Origin: Escherichia coli
GTDB lineage: Bacteria > Pseudomonadota > Gammaproteobacteria > Enterobacterales > Enterobacteriaceae
Length of the DNA stretch: 64,000 bases
Assembly: GCF_009931435.1 (NCBI RefSeq)
Contig: NZ_CP043414.1
Reading direction: 5' to 3' (one strand)
Position numbers and translations under genes: made by a program. Below, piece by piece: positions 15,975 to 61,651 of this stretch. The notes below the pieces were generated by a model. The model had not been told where the DNA came from. It did not search any database and saw only the letters and a program-made list of their open reading frames with translations. The first letter of the stretch is position 1. The number at the start of each line of letters is the position of its first letter.

Positions 15975-16007
15975 GAGATTCCCTTCATCATGCAAATAAT
16001 TGATATG

Positions 16008-16040
16008 CAAAAAGGCCCAGTCTTCCGACTGGGCCTTCTG
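16008..16040 (-). terminator. rrnE terminator (hairpin plus U-tract) just 3' of 5S
   Basis: Minus-strand AGAAGGCCCAGTCGGAAGACTGGGCCTTTTTGC, about 10 nt after the 5S 3' end. Confidence 0.85.
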
Positions 16041-16049
16041 CTTAATTTG

Positions 16050-16169
16050 ATGCCTGGCAGTTCCCTACTCTCGCATGGGGAGACCCCACACTACCATCGG
16101 CGCTACGGCGTTTCACTTCTGAGTTCGGCATGGGGTCAGGTGGGACCACCGCGCTAAGGCCGCCAGGCA
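16050..16169 (-). rRNA. rrfE: 5S rRNA (rrnE operon)
   Basis: 120-nt reverse-complement match to E. coli 5S (ATGCCTGGCAGTTCCCTACTCTCGCATGGGGAGACCCC ... GGCCGCCAGGCA). Confidence 0.95.
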
Positions 16170-16262
16170 AATTCTGTTTCATCAGACCGCTTCTGCGTTC
16201 TGATTTAATCTGTATCAGGCTGAAAATCTTCTCTCAATCCGCCAAAACATCTTCGGCGTTGT

Positions 16263-19167
<2,905 letters not shown>

Positions 19168-19360
19168 TCACAACCCGAAGATGTTTCTTGCGATTCATCA
19201 TCGTGTTGCGAAAATTTGAGAGACTCACGAACAACTTTCGTTGTTCAGTGTTTCAATTTTCAGCTTGATCCAGATTTTTAAAGAGCAAATATCTCAAACG
19301 TCACCCGAAGATGAGTTTTGAGATATTAAGGCAGGTGACTTTCACTCACAAACCAGCAAG

Positions 19361-19436
19361 TGGCGTCCCCTAGGGGATTCGAACCCCTGTTACCGCCGTG
19401 AAAGGGCGGTGTCCTGGGCCTCTAGACGAAGGGGAC
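19361..19436 (-). tRNA. gltV: tRNA-Glu(UUC) in the 16S-23S spacer
   Basis: Exact reverse complement of GTCCCCTTCGTCTAGAGGCCCAGGACACCGCCCTTTCACGGCGGTAACAGGGGTTCGAATCCCCTAGGGGACGCCA. Confidence 0.97.
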
Positions 19437-19521
19437 GTATCAGTCTGCTTCGCAAGACGCCTTGCTTTTCACTTTCTATCAGACAATCTGTGTGAGCACT
19501 GCAAAGTACGCTTCTTTAAGG

Positions 19522-21063
<1,542 letters not shown>

Positions 21064-21194
21064 AAAAGTTTGATGCTCAAAGAATTAAACTTCGTAATGA
21101 ATTACGTGTTCACTCTTGAGACTTGGTATTCATTTTTCGTCTTGCGACGTTAAGAATCCGTATCTTCGAGTGCCCACACAGATTGTCTGATAAA

Positions 21195-21207
21195 TTGTTA
21201 AAGAGCA
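21195..21207 (-). promoter_or_regulatory. rrn leader boxA antitermination element (rrnE)
   Basis: Minus-strand TGCTCTTTAACAA in the 16S leader. Confidence 0.8.
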
Positions 21208-21247
21208 GTTGCGACGCGGCTTTCAACTCACTGTCGCGAGGTGGCGT

Positions 21248-21275
21248 ATATTACGCTTTCCTCTTTCAGAGTCAA
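21248..21275 (-). promoter_or_regulatory. rrnE P2 promoter
   Basis: Minus strand TTGACT -16 bp- TAATAT. Confidence 0.75.
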
Positions 21276-27363: not shown

Positions 27364-27409
27364 GAGTAAAAATGACTCGCCACACACAGCAGGCGAGTCA
27401 TTTTTACTC
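27364..27409. promoter_or_regulatory. ZraR enhancer: 18-bp perfect inverted repeat between divergent zraSR and zraP
   Basis: GAGTAAAAATGACTCGCC -10 bp- GGCGAGTCATTTTTACTC. Confidence 0.7.
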
Positions 27410-27923: not shown

Positions 27924-28625
27924 TCAGAACGTTTTCTCATTGGGTTGCCAGCGACAGAAATCAGAGTTTGCCACTAACAGTAATTGCGAACCTTCGGGCG
28001 CTTCCAGCCATGCCACGCTGACATCAACAGAAGAGCGGCTCTGGCGGCGCTCGATATGCGCTATCGCCTGCGAATCTAAATCAGGTTTAATGGTTTGCCC
28101 TTCGCAGGTGGTCACGGTCTGTTCCATCGCATGCCAGCGCCCCTGGCGCAGCACGACTCTCCCCTGACGTAAGGCATCGCTAATCTGGCGGATCTGATCA
28201 GCACGATAACGGTATAAATCGATTTGGTCGTTAGAAAGCTGCTGCTTTTCCCCATCGGATTCACGTTGCATAAAGCTCAGATCGCCGCGATCGTCAAAAC
28301 GCGCGCGAATATTCACCGGCGGTTTGCTGTAAACATTGATATTGATAAGCGTGAGGTTATCGCCCTGCCAGCGATACTCTCGCGTCGTGGTATCGCCACT
28401 GCGCCACGGGCTAAACACAGCAAGCAGATGCACATTATTGCCACTGTCTTTTCGCCAGATACGTACCGCGCCCTGATCTTCAGCAAATCCACTGGCGGTA
28501 AAGGGAGGAAGTGAAGAGTTGTGACTACAGGCAGTGAGAAACAGAGCGCCCGCCAGCATCAATGATCGACGCCAGAAAGACAAAAGGGGTGAAACCACCC
28601 CTTCGTTAAAACTGTTCACTGCCAC
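27924..28625 (-). CDS. yjaH: DUF1481-type putative lipoprotein YjaH
   Basis: 233-aa ORF with lipobox-like LFLTAC near the N-terminus; immediately downstream of hupA. Confidence 0.85.
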   Translation of the reverse strand: MAVNSFNEGVVSPLLSFWRRSLMLAGALFLTACSHNSSLPPFTASGFAEDQGAVRIWRKDSGNNVHLLAVFSPWRSGDTTTREYRWQGDNLTLININVYSKPPVNIRARFDDRGDLSFMQRESDGEKQQLSNDQIDLYRYRADQIRQISDALRQGRVVLRQGRWHAMEQTVTTCEGQTIKPDLDSQAIAHIERRQSRSSVDVSVAWLEAPEGSQLLLVANSDFCRWQPNEKTF

Positions 28626-28631
28626 GCAATC

Positions 28632-28904
28632 TTACTTAACTGCGTCTTTCAGTGCCTTGCCAGAAACAAATGCCGGCACGTTAGCTGCGGCAATTTTGAT
28701 TTCTTTACCGGTCTGCGGGTTGCGGCCAGTACGCTCAGCGCGGTGGTTCACTTTGAAGGTACCGAAACCAACCAGTTGTACAGCATCGCCTTCTTTCAGA
28801 GACTCAGTAATTGCAGCCAGAGTGGACTCCAGAGCAGCTTTAGCCTGGGTTTTGGACAGTTCTGCTTTCTCTGCAATTACATCAATCAGTTGAGTCTTGT
28901 TCAT
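28632..28904 (-). CDS. hupA: DNA-binding protein HU-alpha (90 aa)
   Basis: [29 protein letters not shown]...; classic HU fold. Confidence 0.98.
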
Positions 28905-29090
28905 AAGTTATCCTTACAATGTGTTTATCGCTTGCTAAGCATCGAGTGCGACGGAAATGCCAGAATAGCACTCTCCTGCATACACGCACCGATAGCCACT
29001 TTTTTTCGCCCCCCAAATGTAGACCAGACGGGGGGCGAAAGGGAAGACTCCAGGTATGACAAATCAGGCGTTAAATCACGTTTTCTGGTC

Positions 29091-29681
29091 TTATTGCTGA
29101 AAAATTATACCAATATTGCTCTCGCCCGCCTCACGCAGGTCTGCCCTAAGGCCTTTTATCAGCTCGATATCGCGTTCTTCGCACTCAGCTAAAAGTCGGA
29201 ATATTTCCCACTGAATGTCCCACTCTTGCTCTACAGCTGGGTTTTCTTTGAGCTCTTCATCGCTCATTTCACGGCCAGCCTGAGTCATTTCCAGCATCGC
29301 CACGGTCGTGATGGAGGTCTTACTCACTTCTACCGCGTGTTCGAGCGTTTCGCCACTTAAACGCGAATGGACCAGTTCACTTAACGCCACGCAAGCATCG
29401 ATTGCCGGATAAACGCCGTACAGATCGAAATCGTCCGCTGAAGGAATCGCTTCTTCAAATTTCTCCAGTTGGCTGTCGAAATTTACTTTTGCGTCTTTGA
29501 CGGTCAGTGTTTCCCAGATGAGATCGAGAATGCGGCGGTAAATTTGCCCATCGCCGAAGCCGGTTTGCTGGCAGAACATGGCGTAATTGGGGTACATGCG
29601 TTCGCATAAGCAAGCCATGAAAGTGACGTGCTGCCAGCTTTCCAGGCGCTCCAGACGCAGATGAATTGGGTTTTGTAACAT
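29091..29681 (-). CDS. yjaG: DUF416 family protein YjaG (196 aa)
   Basis: Full-length ORF in the conserved position between nfi and hupA. Confidence 0.88.
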   Translation of the reverse strand: MLQNPIHLRLERLESWQHVTFMACLCERMYPNYAMFCQQTGFGDGQIYRRILDLIWETLTVKDAKVNFDSQLEKFEEAIPSADDFDLYGVYPAIDACVALSELVHSRLSGETLEHAVEVSKTSITTVAMLEMTQAGREMSDEELKENPAVEQEWDIQWEIFRLLAECEERDIELIKGLRADLREAGESNIGIIFQQ

Positions 29682-29723
29682 GTTGAGTTCTCGAATACGG
29701 AAATTATCCGCAGTTTACCTGAA

Positions 29724-30395
29724 TTAGGGCTGATTTGCTGTATAGCGCACGAACGCCGGACGTTCCGAAGCCACCGCGTCTGCCCAGCGCGTTGGCTCCG
29801 GCAGACGATAGCCTTTCATGCAGCGTTGTACCCAGGCCAGCGCACTATCCATGCTGACACGATGGCCAGTTGCGATAAATAGCGGGTTACAGCGCGCTTT
29901 ACTGCGCCAGACCCAGGCCAGCTGCTCGCCTTTATCCATCAACGGTGCCAGCGCGCCCGGTTCGCTGGAGAGCGGCTCGAATTTACCGCATAACCGCTTT
30001 TTCGCTACGCCAATGGTCGGTACGTCCACTAATAAGCCAAAATGGCTGGCAACGCCAAGACGGCGCGGATGCGAGATCCCATGACCATCGACAAACACTA
30101 AATCCGGCTTTTGCGACAGCATCTCCCACGCTGCCAGCAGCGCAGGATATTCGCGGAAGGAAAGAAAACCTGGAATGTAAGGCATGGTGGTGGCGATGCG
30201 TGCCACTTTATACTCCACCAGCTCAAGAGAGGGGTATTTCAGCAGCACCATCGCCGCTCGCGTCACTTCTCCGCCCTGCTCAAACCCGACATCGGCTCCG
30301 GCGATCAGATCCGGCGGATCTTTATCAAGTCGATCCTCACGGATCACAGAAGAAGCCAGTTCGATTTGTTGAGCGCGTAATGACGCGAGATCCAT
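29724..30395 (-). CDS. nfi: Endonuclease V (deoxyinosine 3' endonuclease), 223 aa
   Basis: Full-length ORF, co-directional and adjacent to hemE. Confidence 0.95.
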
Positions 30396-52435: not shown

Positions 52436-52511
52436 TGGTGCTGATAGGCAGATTCGAACTGCCGACCTCACCCTTACCAAGGGTGCGCTCTACCAACTGA
52501 GCTATATCAGC
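52436..52511 (-). tRNA. thrT: tRNA-Thr(GGU)
   Basis: Reverse complement of GCTGATATAGCTCAGTTGGTAGAGCGCACCCTTGGTAAGGGTGAGGTCGGCAGTTCGAATCTGCCTATCAGCACCA. Confidence 0.95.
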
Positions 52512-52517
52512 ACATCT

Positions 52518-52592
<75 letters not shown>

Positions 52593-52708
52593 ATCCTGGA
52601 ACTCGGCTACCTGATTTTCATTCTGCACTGAATATCGAGAGAAGCTCTCTTTATTCGAGCCGGTAAGCGAACTTATCGTCTCGGGCTACGCCATCGCGTG
52701 GCCGAAAT

Positions 52709-52793
<85 letters not shown>

Positions 52794-52801
52794 GGACTTG
52801 A

Positions 52802-52877
<76 letters not shown>

Positions 52878-56208: not shown

Positions 56209-56300
56209 AGCTGCTTTCCTGATGCAAAAACGAGGCTAGTTTACCGTATCTGTGGGGGGATGGCTTGTAGATATGACGACAGGAAGAGTTTGTAGAAACG

Positions 56301-56333
56301 CAAAAAGGCCCAGTCTTCCGACTGGGCCTTCTG
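56301..56333 (-). terminator. rrnB terminator (single hairpin, same sequence as the rrnE terminator)
   Basis: Minus-strand AGAAGGCCCAGTCGGAAGACTGGGCCTTTTTGCGTTTCTAC directly after 5S. Confidence 0.8.
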
Positions 56334-56342
56334 CTTAATTTG

Positions 56343-56462
56343 ATGCCTGGCAGTTCCCTACTCTCGCATGGGGAGACCCCACACTACCATCGGCGCTACG
56401 GCGTTTCACTTCTGAGTTCGGCATGGGGTCAGGTGGGACCACCGCGCTAAGGCCGCCAGGCA
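56343..56462 (-). rRNA. rrfB: 5S rRNA (rrnB operon)
   Basis: Same length and sequence as the rrfE copy, 40,293 bp away. Confidence 0.95.
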
Positions 56463-56555
56463 AATTCTGTTTCATCAGACCGCTTCTGCGTTCTGATTTA
56501 ATCTGTATCAGGCTGAAAATCTTCTCTCAATCCGCCAAAACATCTTCGGCGTTGT

Positions 56556-59460
<2,905 letters not shown>

Positions 59461-59653
59461 TCACAACCCGAAGATGTTTCTTGCGATTCATCATCGTGTT
59501 GCGAAAATTTGAGAGACTCACGAACAACTTTCGTTGTTCAGTGTTTCAATTTTCAGCTTGATCCAGATTTTTAAAGAGCAAATATCTCAAACGTCACCCG
59601 AAGATGAGTTTTGAGATATTAAGGCAGGTGACTTTCACTCACAAACCAGCAAG

Positions 59654-59729
59654 TGGCGTCCCCTAGGGGATTCGAACCCCTGTTACCGCCGTGAAAGGGC
59701 GGTGTCCTGGGCCTCTAGACGAAGGGGAC
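59654..59729 (-). tRNA. gltT: tRNA-Glu(UUC) in the 16S-23S spacer
   Basis: Same 76-nt sequence as gltV. Confidence 0.97.
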
Positions 59730-59900
59730 ACGAAAATTGCTTATCACGCGCTGCGTGATATTTTCGTGTAGGGTGAGCTTTCATTAATAGAAAGCGAACG
59801 GCCTTATTCTCTTCAGCCTCACTCCCAACGCGTAAACGCCTTGCTATTCACTTTTCATCAGACAATCTGTGTGAGCACTGCAAAGTACAGTTCTTTAAGG

Positions 59901-61442
<1,542 letters not shown>

Positions 61443-61574
61443 AAAAGTTTGATGCTCAAAGAATTAAACTTCGTAATGAATTACGTGTTCACTCTTGAGA
61501 CTTGGTATTCATTTTTCGTCTTGCGACGTTAAGAATCCGTATCTTCGAGTGCCCACACAGATTGTCTGATAAAT

Positions 61575-61587
61575 TGTTAAAGAGCAG
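61575..61587 (-). promoter_or_regulatory. rrn leader boxA (rrnB)
   Basis: Minus-strand TGCTCTTTAACAA. Confidence 0.8.
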
Positions 61588-61623
61588 TGCCGCTTCGCTT
61601 TTTCTCAGCGGCGCGGGGTGTGC

Positions 61624-61651
61624 ATAATACGCTTTCCCGCTACAGAGTCAA
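61624..61651 (-). promoter_or_regulatory. rrnB P2 promoter
   Basis: Minus strand TTGACT -16 bp- TATTAT. Confidence 0.8.

What the first reader, a model, noticed from the sequence alone, without database searches (positions are those of the whole stretch)
29000..29040. Strong G/C-only hairpin in the yjaG-hupA spacer without a proper 3' U-tract
TCGCCCCCC -15-nt loop- GGGGGGCGA forms a 9-bp pure G/C stem. On the plus strand it is preceded (not followed) by T7; on the minus strand it is followed by A's. It is therefore not a canonical intrinsic terminator for yjaG, although it lies about 50 nt after the yjaG stop and inside the hupA upstream region. It could be an RNA-stabilising 3' stem-loop, a protein binding site or a roadblock.
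Basis: seen in the sequence. Interest (0 to 1): 0.2.

Follow-up and report, generated by a model that had tools for sequence, protein, structure and literature searches.

The report
hupA core promoter, not a terminator
The G/C-rich hairpin between yjaG and hupA is real, but its loop holds the -10 box and its downstream arm holds the start site of the promoter for the nucleoid protein HU-alpha, so it is an ordinary known promoter rather than a terminator or an RNA-stabilising stem.

Summary
The inverted repeat exists. It is TTTCGCCCCCC-N15-GGGGGGCGAAA: 11 Watson-Crick pairs, 8 of them G/C, at window 29004-29040. All the genes here lie on the minus strand.

On the sense strand the repeat follows CCCUUU and precedes A7, so it has no U-tract. 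Published full-length primary-transcript data (SMRT-Cappable-seq, PMC6131387) place the hupA start site at MG1655 4200175. That is window 29010, the fifth G of the downstream arm.

The "loop" carries an invariant -10 hexamer, TACATT. An 18-bp spacer contains the C-run arm. The -35 is TTCCCT in E. coli and TTCACA in most other Enterobacterales.

Term-seq lists (PMC7815308) show no 3' end at the hairpin, and at least one read spans nudC-hemE-nfi-yjaG-hupA.

Across 57 distinct Enterobacteriaceae spacers there is no compensatory change, and one central pair is broken in 23 of them. Order-wide there are two candidate compensatory events, which is inconclusive.

Verdict: this is the hupA core promoter with a G-rich discriminator. 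The RNA hairpin can form only on rare read-through transcripts and does not detectably terminate them. Low interest; already known in kind.

The parts
29091..29093 (-). yjaG stop codon (TAA). This is position 1-3 of the 192-nt spacer numbering used in the report (spacer position p = window 29094 - p).
   Evidence: ORF 29091..29681, minus strand, 196 aa, DUF416/YjaG.
29076..29084 (-). Invariant AAAACGTGA, a candidate CRP half-site. The 22-mer centre lies about -62.5 from the start site. This is an inference and was not tested.
   Evidence: Invariant in 57 Enterobacteriaceae spacers and in all other Enterobacterales families sampled. The right half-site matches the CRP consensus poorly (read by eye).
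29040..29045 (-). -35 hexamer of the hupA promoter. It is TTCCCT in E. coli (3 of 6) and TTCACA (5 of 6) in Kluyvera, Erwinia, Pantoea, Dickeya, Pectobacterium, Rahnella and Serratia.
   Evidence: TTC is invariant. The scan tool reports TTCACA-18-TACATT as the only promoter-like site in L068 and L135.
29030..29040 (-). Upstream arm of the inverted repeat on the sense strand (TTTCGCCCCCC). It lies in the 18-bp spacer between -35 and -10, at about -30 to -20.
   Evidence: Pairwise divergence of the arm core is 0.142, against 0.389 at yjaG third codon positions.
29015..29029 (-). The 'loop' of the hairpin (GTCTGGTCTACATTT). It is nearly invariant in all 139 loci that contain the core motif.
29016..29021 (-). 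-10 hexamer TACATT of the hupA promoter, with A at position 2 and T at position 6.
   Evidence: Invariant across five families. It lies 5-6 nt upstream of the mapped start site and is picked by the promoter scan in orthologous loci.
29004..29014 (-). Downstream arm (GGGGGGCGAAA). It comprises the G-rich discriminator, the start site and the first transcribed bases.
29010..29010 (-). hupA transcription start site, corresponding to MG1655 NC_000913.3 position 4200175 (possible error of 1 nt).
   Evidence: SMRT-Cappable-seq lists the transcript 4200175-4200605 (gene b4000) in both growth conditions, in a supplement of PMC6131387. The coordinate map was verified with the 61-nt strings and the '-28 from hupA' entry of PMC7815308.
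29000..29006 (-). A7 run, at +5 to +11 of the hupA mRNA (T7 on the plus strand).
28905..29010 (-). hupA 5' UTR of 106 nt, very strongly conserved.
   Evidence: Pairwise divergence 0.027, against 0.023 for hupA codon positions 1+2. Alignments.
28632..28904 (-). hupA coding sequence (HU-alpha, 90 aa).
28580..28604 (-). The real intrinsic terminator of hupA: a stem followed by a U-tract.
   Evidence: Terminator scan. Term-seq 3' end and SMRT-Cappable-seq termination site both at MG1655 4200605.

Best explanation
The palindrome is the core of the sigma-70 promoter of hupA, seen as if it were a hairpin. On the sense (minus) strand the layout is as follows:
- The -35 is TTCCCT (window 29045-29040).
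- An 18-bp spacer follows and contains the C-rich upstream arm.
- The -10 is TACATT (29021-29016) and sits in the 'loop'.
- The G-run of the downstream arm is the G/C-rich discriminator.
- Transcription starts at its fifth G (29010).
- The A7 run is +5 to +11 of a 106-nt, extremely conserved 5' UTR.

hupA mRNA made from this promoter therefore contains only the last 7 nt of the downstream arm and cannot form the hairpin. The hairpin can form only in the minority of transcripts that read in from the upstream nudC-hemE-nfi-yjaG genes. There it lacks a U-tract and does not give detectable termination or stable 3' ends.

Shown here: the repeat itself, the start-site position, the conservation pattern, the absence of mapped 3' ends, and the existence of read-through. 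Inferred: that the G-rich discriminator, the weak -35 and the long spacer tune the promoter's response to growth phase, supercoiling or ppGpp; and that the arm complementarity is largely a by-product of a C-rich spacer next to a G-rich discriminator.
For: 1. Start site. SMRT-Cappable-seq lists the primary transcript NC_000913.3 4200175-4200605 for b4000 in both conditions. The 3' coordinate is identical to the Term-seq end, so the numbering agrees. The mapping MG1655 = 4200091 + spacer position was checked with two independent entries. It puts +1 at the fifth G of GGGGGG.

2. Promoter elements. TACATT ends 5-6 nt upstream of that start. It and the surrounding 15-mer TCTGGTCTACATTTG are invariant across Enterobacteriaceae, Erwiniaceae, Pectobacteriaceae, Yersiniaceae and a locus labelled Hafnia.

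3. The consensus scan independently returns TTCACA-18-TACATT as the sole promoter-like site in the Kluyvera and Rahnella loci.

4. Dickeya carries an insertion of about 124 nt, and Pectobacterium one of 17 nt, at spacer positions 128-132. Both keep the upstream block intact. The start must therefore lie upstream of that point, and the block works independently of its distance to the ATG.

5. Conservation is asymmetric. Pairwise divergence is 0.042 for loop, -10 and discriminator, 0.027 for the UTR, and 0.142 for the upstream arm, against 0.389 at neutral-like sites.

6. No terminator behaviour. There is no U-tract, no Term-seq 3' end, no termination site, and an operon b3996-b4000 extended through the site.

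7. No covariation within Enterobacteriaceae. No pair changed on both sides, 80.5% of cells are paired against a shuffled mean of 80.7%, and the C62:G82 pair is broken in 23 of 57 spacers. Hairpin free energy decays from -23.5 kcal/mol in E. coli to a median of -14.3 and a weakest value of -7.6.

8. General knowledge, as stated in PMC9221221: the G/C content of the discriminator and the spacer length set the supercoiling and ppGpp response, and FIS activates hupA.
Against: The start site rests on one published dataset read from a supplement. I could not retrieve dRNA-seq or the original S1 mapping. A 1-nt error is possible.

The E. coli -35 matches only 3 of 6 and the spacer is 18 bp, so the window itself fails the simple promoter scan.

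Spacer sequences are normally free to vary, yet the C-run is conserved (C60-C62 invariant in Enterobacteriaceae). Order-wide there are two candidate compensatory events. One is A60:U84 in the Rahnella, Ewingella and 'Hafnia' loci. The other is R57:U87 in Pantoea-like loci. The covariation score is 0.124 against a shuffled mean of 0.087, with 0 of 500 shuffles reaching it. Some selection on complementarity therefore cannot be excluded.

Absence of Term-seq ends could reflect low yjaG expression and list thresholds.
Confidence: 0.85

Rival explanations
1. The stem-loop is a non-canonical terminator or a 3'-exonuclease barrier. On this view it defines or stabilises the 3' end of yjaG (nudC-hemE-nfi-yjaG) transcripts.
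For: A strong stem lies 53 nt after the yjaG stop. A weakened G/C-rich hairpin persists in every Enterobacterales locus examined, at -7.6 to -23.5 kcal/mol. Two candidate compensatory events are seen order-wide.
Against: The stem is followed by A7, not U. The loop is 15 nt. There are no 3' ends at MG1655 42001xx in the Term-seq lists, no SMRT-Cappable-seq termination site, and read-through into hupA is documented. Stem changes in 23 of 57 Enterobacteriaceae spacers are uncompensated. The best-conserved part is the loop, which is the opposite of what a structural hairpin shows.
Confidence: 0.07
2. The inverted repeat is a DNA-level regulatory element embedded in the promoter. Either it is the operator of a dimeric regulator, or it is a cruciform or hairpin that extrudes with supercoiling and is bound by a structure-specific protein such as HU itself, sequestering the -10 box.
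For: Both arms are more conserved than neutral sites (0.142 and 0.096 against 0.389), although promoter spacers are usually unconstrained. Single-stranded DNA folds at -14 kcal/mol, z = -4.17. hupA is reported to respond to DNA relaxation (PMC8301835). From my own knowledge, not checked here, hupA is reported to be autoregulated and HU to prefer cruciform DNA.
Against: A 15-nt spacer between 11-bp arms is unfavourable for cruciform extrusion (general knowledge). The arm centres are 26 bp apart, and the arms are less conserved than the sequence between them. Mismatches are frequent and uncompensated. There is no direct evidence for any such protein or structure.
Confidence: 0.06
3. The complementarity is pure coincidence: a C-rich spacer happens to sit next to a G-rich discriminator, and the pairing has no function.
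For: About 0.25 perfect 11-bp repeats are expected per 64 kb, which is about 18 per genome. There is no covariation within the family. E. coli has the strongest version and other genera have eroded ones.
Against: This view is compatible with, and largely contained in, the best explanation. It differs only in denying any selection on complementarity. That sits uneasily with the conserved C-run and with the two order-wide double changes.
Confidence: 0.5

Closest known systems
hupA promoter (hupAp) of Escherichia coli
   Same: Same locus and the same start region. A single proximal promoter gives a monocistronic hupA mRNA that ends at the hupA terminator. FIS activation is cited in PMC9221221. 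The promoter was first mapped around 1990 and its CRP/FIS control was described in 1996; that is from my memory and I could not retrieve those papers.
   Different: Nothing differs. This is that promoter. I found no open-access text discussing the inverted repeat that flanks its -10 hexamer.
Stringent or supercoiling-sensitive promoters with G/C-rich discriminators (rrn P1, tyrT, fis)
   Same: A G/C-rich segment lies between -10 and +1 (TGGGG before the +1 G, then GCG), the -35 is suboptimal, and the gene is linked to growth phase. The class is described in PMC9221221.
   Different: The spacer is 18 bp, not the short 16 bp typical of that class. G at -5/-4 would be expected to favour, not weaken, the sigma region 1.2 contact (general knowledge). 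The ppGpp/DksA response of this promoter was not tested here.
Rho-independent (intrinsic) terminator
   Same: A G/C-rich stem lies just downstream of a stop codon.
   Different: There is no 3' U-tract, the loop is 15 nt, and no 3' ends are mapped. The true terminator of this locus is at 28604-28583.
REP/BIME and ERIC intergenic repeats
   Same: An imperfect or perfect palindrome in an intergenic spacer of an enterobacterial operon region.
   Different: It is single-copy in E. coli, with a median of 1 place per genome. It has no REP consensus and sits at a fixed orthologous position. An ERIC-like element does occur in Dickeya, but 40-50 nt further downstream in the UTR.

Membership tests
Intrinsic (Rho-independent) terminator | G/C-rich stem-loop shortly after a stop codon | tested here: met
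   An 11-bp stem (8 G/C pairs) begins 53 nt after the yjaG stop.
Intrinsic (Rho-independent) terminator | Run of U immediately 3' of the stem on the transcribed strand | tested here: not met
   The sense strand has A7 and the antisense strand has AAAGGGAAG. The site is not reported by the terminator scan.
Intrinsic (Rho-independent) terminator | Transcript 3' ends mapped at the site | tested here: not met
   There is no entry at MG1655 42001xx in the Term-seq lists, no termination site in SMRT-Cappable-seq, and the b3996-b4000 read-through operon is listed. Thresholds and low yjaG expression limit this test.
Sigma-70 promoter | -10 hexamer with A at position 2 and T at position 6 | tested here: met
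   TACATT at 29021-29016 is invariant in all loci.
Sigma-70 promoter | -35 hexamer 16-18 bp upstream | tested here: met
   The spacer is 18 bp. TTCCCT (3 of 6) in E. coli is weak and fails the scan threshold. TTCACA (5 of 6) in most genera passes it.
Sigma-70 promoter | Experimentally mapped primary 5' end 5-9 nt downstream of the -10 | tested here: met
   The start site at 4200175 corresponds to window 29010, 6 nt after the last T of TACATT (a 5-nt discriminator). It comes from capped (triphosphate) full-length reads in PMC6131387.
Stringent-type promoter (G/C-rich discriminator class) | G/C-rich discriminator | tested here: met
   T-GGGG lies before the +1 G, followed by GCG.
Stringent-type promoter (G/C-rich discriminator class) | Short (16-bp) spacer | tested here: not met
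   The spacer is 18 bp.
Stringent-type promoter (G/C-rich discriminator class) | Inhibition by ppGpp/DksA; dependence on negative supercoiling | not testable with these tools
   No data were retrieved. PMC8301835 lists hupA as activated by DNA relaxation, which would argue against the classic pattern.
Conserved structured RNA element | Base pairs maintained by compensatory substitutions | tested here: inconclusive
   Within Enterobacteriaceae, 0 of 11 pairs changed on both sides and pairing equals the shuffle mean. Order-wide, 2 of 8 pairs have double changes (9 cells), with a score of 0.124 against 0.087. However, the sample was selected on position 87, and each change is probably a single event.
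REP/BIME repeat | Many dispersed copies per genome | tested here: not met
   The median is 1 place per E. coli genome.
Cruciform-forming inverted repeat | Perfect arms of about 10 bp or more with a short central spacer | tested here: not met
   The arms are 11 bp, which meets that part, but the spacer is 15 nt. Extrusion itself is not testable here.

The most novel reading that the evidence does not exclude
The complementarity between the C-rich spacer and the G-rich discriminator may be selected. On this reading the hupA promoter carries a structural switch. Under high negative supercoiling the repeat would extrude, or fold on the melted strand, with the -10 hexamer in the loop. It might then be captured by HU, which prefers distorted or cruciform DNA. 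That would give supercoiling-dependent autoregulation of the main nucleoid protein. The two order-wide double substitutions (A60:U84 and R57:U87) and the conserved C-run are the only support.
Probability: 0.06. Interest if true: 0.6.

Novelty: already known. Interest (0 to 1): 0.15.

Why it matters
This is mainly a cautionary case. A very stable G/C hairpin just after a stop codon looks like a terminator or RNA stabiliser but is in fact a promoter seen edge-on. The -10 box is in the loop, and transcription starts inside the downstream arm, so the main mRNA never contains the hairpin.

For annotation, it fixes the hupA promoter elements and shows they are conserved across the whole order Enterobacterales, together with a 106-nt 5' UTR as conserved as the protein-coding positions. 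The only open point of biological interest is whether the conserved C-run and G-run complementarity around the -10 box has a role of its own.

Tried and rejected
1. Alternative -10 (TGcTATTCT at spacer positions 124-132, window ~28970-28962). Rejected: A128 is T in most genera, positions 131-132 vary, and Dickeya and Pectobacterium carry insertions exactly there.

2. Rfam at E <= 10 over 28400-29800 gave only two chance hits, mir-4716 and HOTAIR_3.

3. The promoter scan of the window region found 0 promoter-like sites, because the E. coli -35 is too weak for the threshold.

4. Literature and supplement searches that gave nothing:
- 'yjaG'+'hupA', 'hupA promoter' and 'yjaG'.
- Sequence-string search.
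- 'hupA'+'discriminator' and the ppGpp searches.
- Thomason 2015 is not held.
- No text supplements are held for Dar & Sorek 2018 and Conway 2014.
- No hupA entry in the held supplements of Kim 2012, Ettwiller 2016 and Ramachandran 2014, which are probably truncated.

5. A stable conserved fold in the hupA 5' UTR as an explanation for its conservation. The MFE z-score is only -1.28, so this was not pursued.

6. REP/BIME identity. Rejected because the element is single-copy.

Full report
**Location and orientation.** The window is E. coli chromosome; the 241-bp query is 100% identical to an O157:H7 strain and is present once in 5419 of 5426 complete genomes. All genes around the finding lie on the minus strand: hemE 31469-30405, nfi 30395-29724, yjaG 29681-29091, hupA 28904-28632 and yjaH 28625-27924. 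I number the yjaG-hupA spacer from the T of the yjaG stop codon. Position 1 is window 29093, position p is window 29094 - p, and the A of the hupA ATG is position 190.

**Observation.** The repeat is real.
- The sense RNA reads CCC-UUUCGCCCCCC-GUCUGGUCUACAUUU-GGGGGGCGAAA-AAAAGUGG.
- The loop is 15 nt.
- The 71-nt RNA folds at -28.4 kcal/mol (z = -3.85). The antisense strand gives z = -3.29, and single-stranded DNA gives -14 kcal/mol (z = -4.17).
- Markov simulations expect 0.25 perfect 11-bp repeats with a loop of 20 nt or less per 64 kb. The repeat is unlikely locally, but not impossible genome-wide.
- Neither strand has a U-tract after the stem. The terminator scan reports only the true hupA terminator at 28604-28583.
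- There is no Rfam match.

**Comparative data.**
- A scan of species-representative genomes with YjaG returned 80 Enterobacteriaceae loci.
- The spacer is 192 nt (counting the stop codon and the ATG) in nearly all of them.
- The alignment of 57 distinct spacers is sharply asymmetric. From the hairpin loop (position 65) to the ATG almost every column is invariant. The upstream arm and everything 5' of it vary.
- Mean pairwise divergence is 0.389 at yjaG third codon positions, 0.198 for spacer positions 4-48, 0.142 for the upstream arm core and 0.096 for the downstream arm core. It is 0.042 for positions 65-83 and 0.027 for positions 84-189, the same as hupA codon positions 1+2 at 0.023.
- A hairpin whose loop is far better conserved than its stem is not behaving as a structural RNA.

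**Covariation.**
- On the 57 Enterobacteriaceae spacers the 11-pair helix has no pair changed on both sides. It has 80.5% paired cells against a shuffled mean of 80.7%. Pair C62:G82 is broken in 23 sequences by an uncompensated G-to-A change.
- Predicted hairpin energy falls from -23.5 kcal/mol in E. coli to a median of -14.3 and a minimum of -7.6.
- I then added loci from Erwinia, Pantoea, Dickeya, Pectobacterium, Lonsdalea, Rahnella, Serratia, Gibbsiella, Ewingella and a locus labelled Hafnia. I also added 48 metagenomic loci selected for a non-G at position 87.
- Order-wide, two pairs show double changes. A60:U84 occurs in the Rahnella, Ewingella and 'Hafnia' loci, whereas Serratia, Dickeya and Pectobacterium have an A60/G84 mismatch. 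A57 or G57 pairs with U87 in Pantoea-like loci, whereas Erwinia-like loci have C57/U87 mismatches.
- The covariation score is 0.124 against a shuffled 0.087, with 0 of 500 shuffles reaching it.
- The tool's own caveat applies: relatedness alone can give this result. In addition, the sample was conditioned on position 87, and each change is probably one event.
- I rate covariation as absent within the family and inconclusive order-wide.

**What the sequence is.**
- The invariant loop contains TACATT, a good -10 hexamer.
- Eighteen bp upstream lies TTCCCT in E. coli and TTCACA in most other genera, with TTC invariant.
- The consensus scan independently reports TTCACA-18-TACATT as the only promoter-like site in the Kluyvera and Rahnella loci.
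- I first considered TGcTATTCT at positions 124-132 as the -10. That spot is the only variable patch of the conserved block. Dickeya has an ERIC-like insertion of about 124 nt there and Pectobacterium a 17-nt insertion, while both keep the upstream block. The start site must therefore lie upstream of position 128.

**Experimental start site.**
- The supplement of the SMRT-Cappable-seq paper (Yan et al. 2018, PMC6131387) lists, in both growth conditions, a full-length primary transcript NC_000913.3 4200175-4200605 containing only b4000 (hupA) and ending at the known terminator.
- I verified the coordinate map with Adams et al. 2021 (PMC7815308). Their 3' end at 4200253 is given with a 61-nt string and as -28 from the hupA ORF. 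Their 3' end at 4200605 is identical to the SMRT-Cappable-seq end.
- Hence MG1655 coordinate = 4200091 + spacer position. The start site is position 84, which is window 29010, the fifth G of the GGGGGG arm.
- It lies 6 nt after the last T of TACATT (a 5-nt discriminator), give or take 1 nt.
- So the upstream arm lies in the promoter spacer, the loop holds the -10, and the downstream arm is the discriminator plus +1 to +7. A7 is +5 to +11.
- hupA mRNA from this promoter starts GGCGAAAAAAAGUGG and cannot form the hairpin.

**Terminator or stabiliser idea.**
- The Term-seq lists have no 3' end between 4196488 and 4200253, and none at 42001xx.
- SMRT-Cappable-seq defines no termination site at the hairpin. 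It lists b3996|b3997|b3998|b3999|b4000 as an extension of the annotated operons, which by the paper's definition requires at least one read covering all five genes.
- The hairpin therefore can form on read-through RNA but does not stop it detectably.
- The limits of this test are list thresholds and low yjaG expression.

**Mechanism.**
- Shown here: the promoter elements, the start site, their conservation, the absence of mapped 3' ends and the existence of read-through.
- Inferred from general knowledge: a G/C-rich discriminator, a weak -35 and a long spacer make a promoter sensitive to supercoiling and to ppGpp, and dependent on activators. PMC9221221 states these rules and that FIS activates hupA. 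PMC8301835 lists hupA as activated by DNA relaxation.
- The invariant AAAACGTGA at positions 10-18 would centre a CRP-type 22-mer near -62.5, but its second half-site is poor. This is a lead, not a finding.

**Residual puzzle.** Promoter spacers are usually unconstrained, yet the C-run is conserved and complementary to the discriminator, with two possible compensatory events. A DNA-level structural role remains possible but unsupported. One such role would be a cruciform or hairpin sequestering the -10, perhaps recognised by HU. The 15-nt spacer and the frequent uncompensated mismatches argue against it. I give this about 6%.

**Verdict.** The feature is the known hupA core promoter. Interest is low.

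Noticed in passing
window 28905-29010 (minus strand): The 106-nt hupA 5' UTR is as conserved across Enterobacteriaceae as hupA codon positions 1+2 (pairwise divergence 0.027 against 0.023; neutral-like sites 0.389) and stays nearly invariant across five families. Its predicted fold is not unusually stable (z = -1.28), so the conservation is unexplained.
   Followed up: partly
window ~28962-28966 (spacer positions 128-132); L081 ~1917-2041; L133: This is the only variable patch of the conserved UTR. Dickeya (L081) has an insertion of about 124 nt here resembling an ERIC element: it contains GAGTAAGTCAATGGGGTGAACG, close to the ERIC2 primer sequence as I recall it. Pectobacterium (L133) has a 17-nt insertion at the same point.
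   Followed up: partly
window 29076-29084 (minus strand): AAAACGTGA is invariant in every locus from all families. It could be the left half of a CRP-type site centred about -62.5 from the hupA start, but the right half is poor.
   Followed up: no
window 28932 (minus strand; MG1655 4200253): A weak Term-seq 3' end inside the hupA 5' UTR, 28 nt upstream of the ATG, is listed in one condition of Adams et al. 2021. It may be a premature termination or processing product.
   Followed up: no
window 16007-21275 and 56300-61651: Two near-identical copies (99.97% and 98.4%) of a repeat of about 5.3 kb, each with a tRNA-Glu, on the minus strand. They are consistent with two rRNA operons about 40.3 kb apart. 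They explain the duplicated 11-bp palindromes at 16012/56305 and 19288/59581.
   Followed up: partly
window 52436-52877 (minus strand): A cluster of four tRNA genes in the order Thr(tgt)-Tyr-Gly-Thr(ggt).
   Followed up: no
window 27365-27408: A long perfect palindrome (arms of 12 bp or more, AGTAAAAATGACTCGCC...) at the start of the zraP-side ORF region. It is possibly a regulator binding site in the zraP control region.
   Followed up: no
L002 (E. coli SCPM-O-B-8794), spacer position 82: The G82-to-A change that breaks the central C:G pair also occurs within E. coli itself, so the perfect stem is not fixed even in the species.
   Followed up: no
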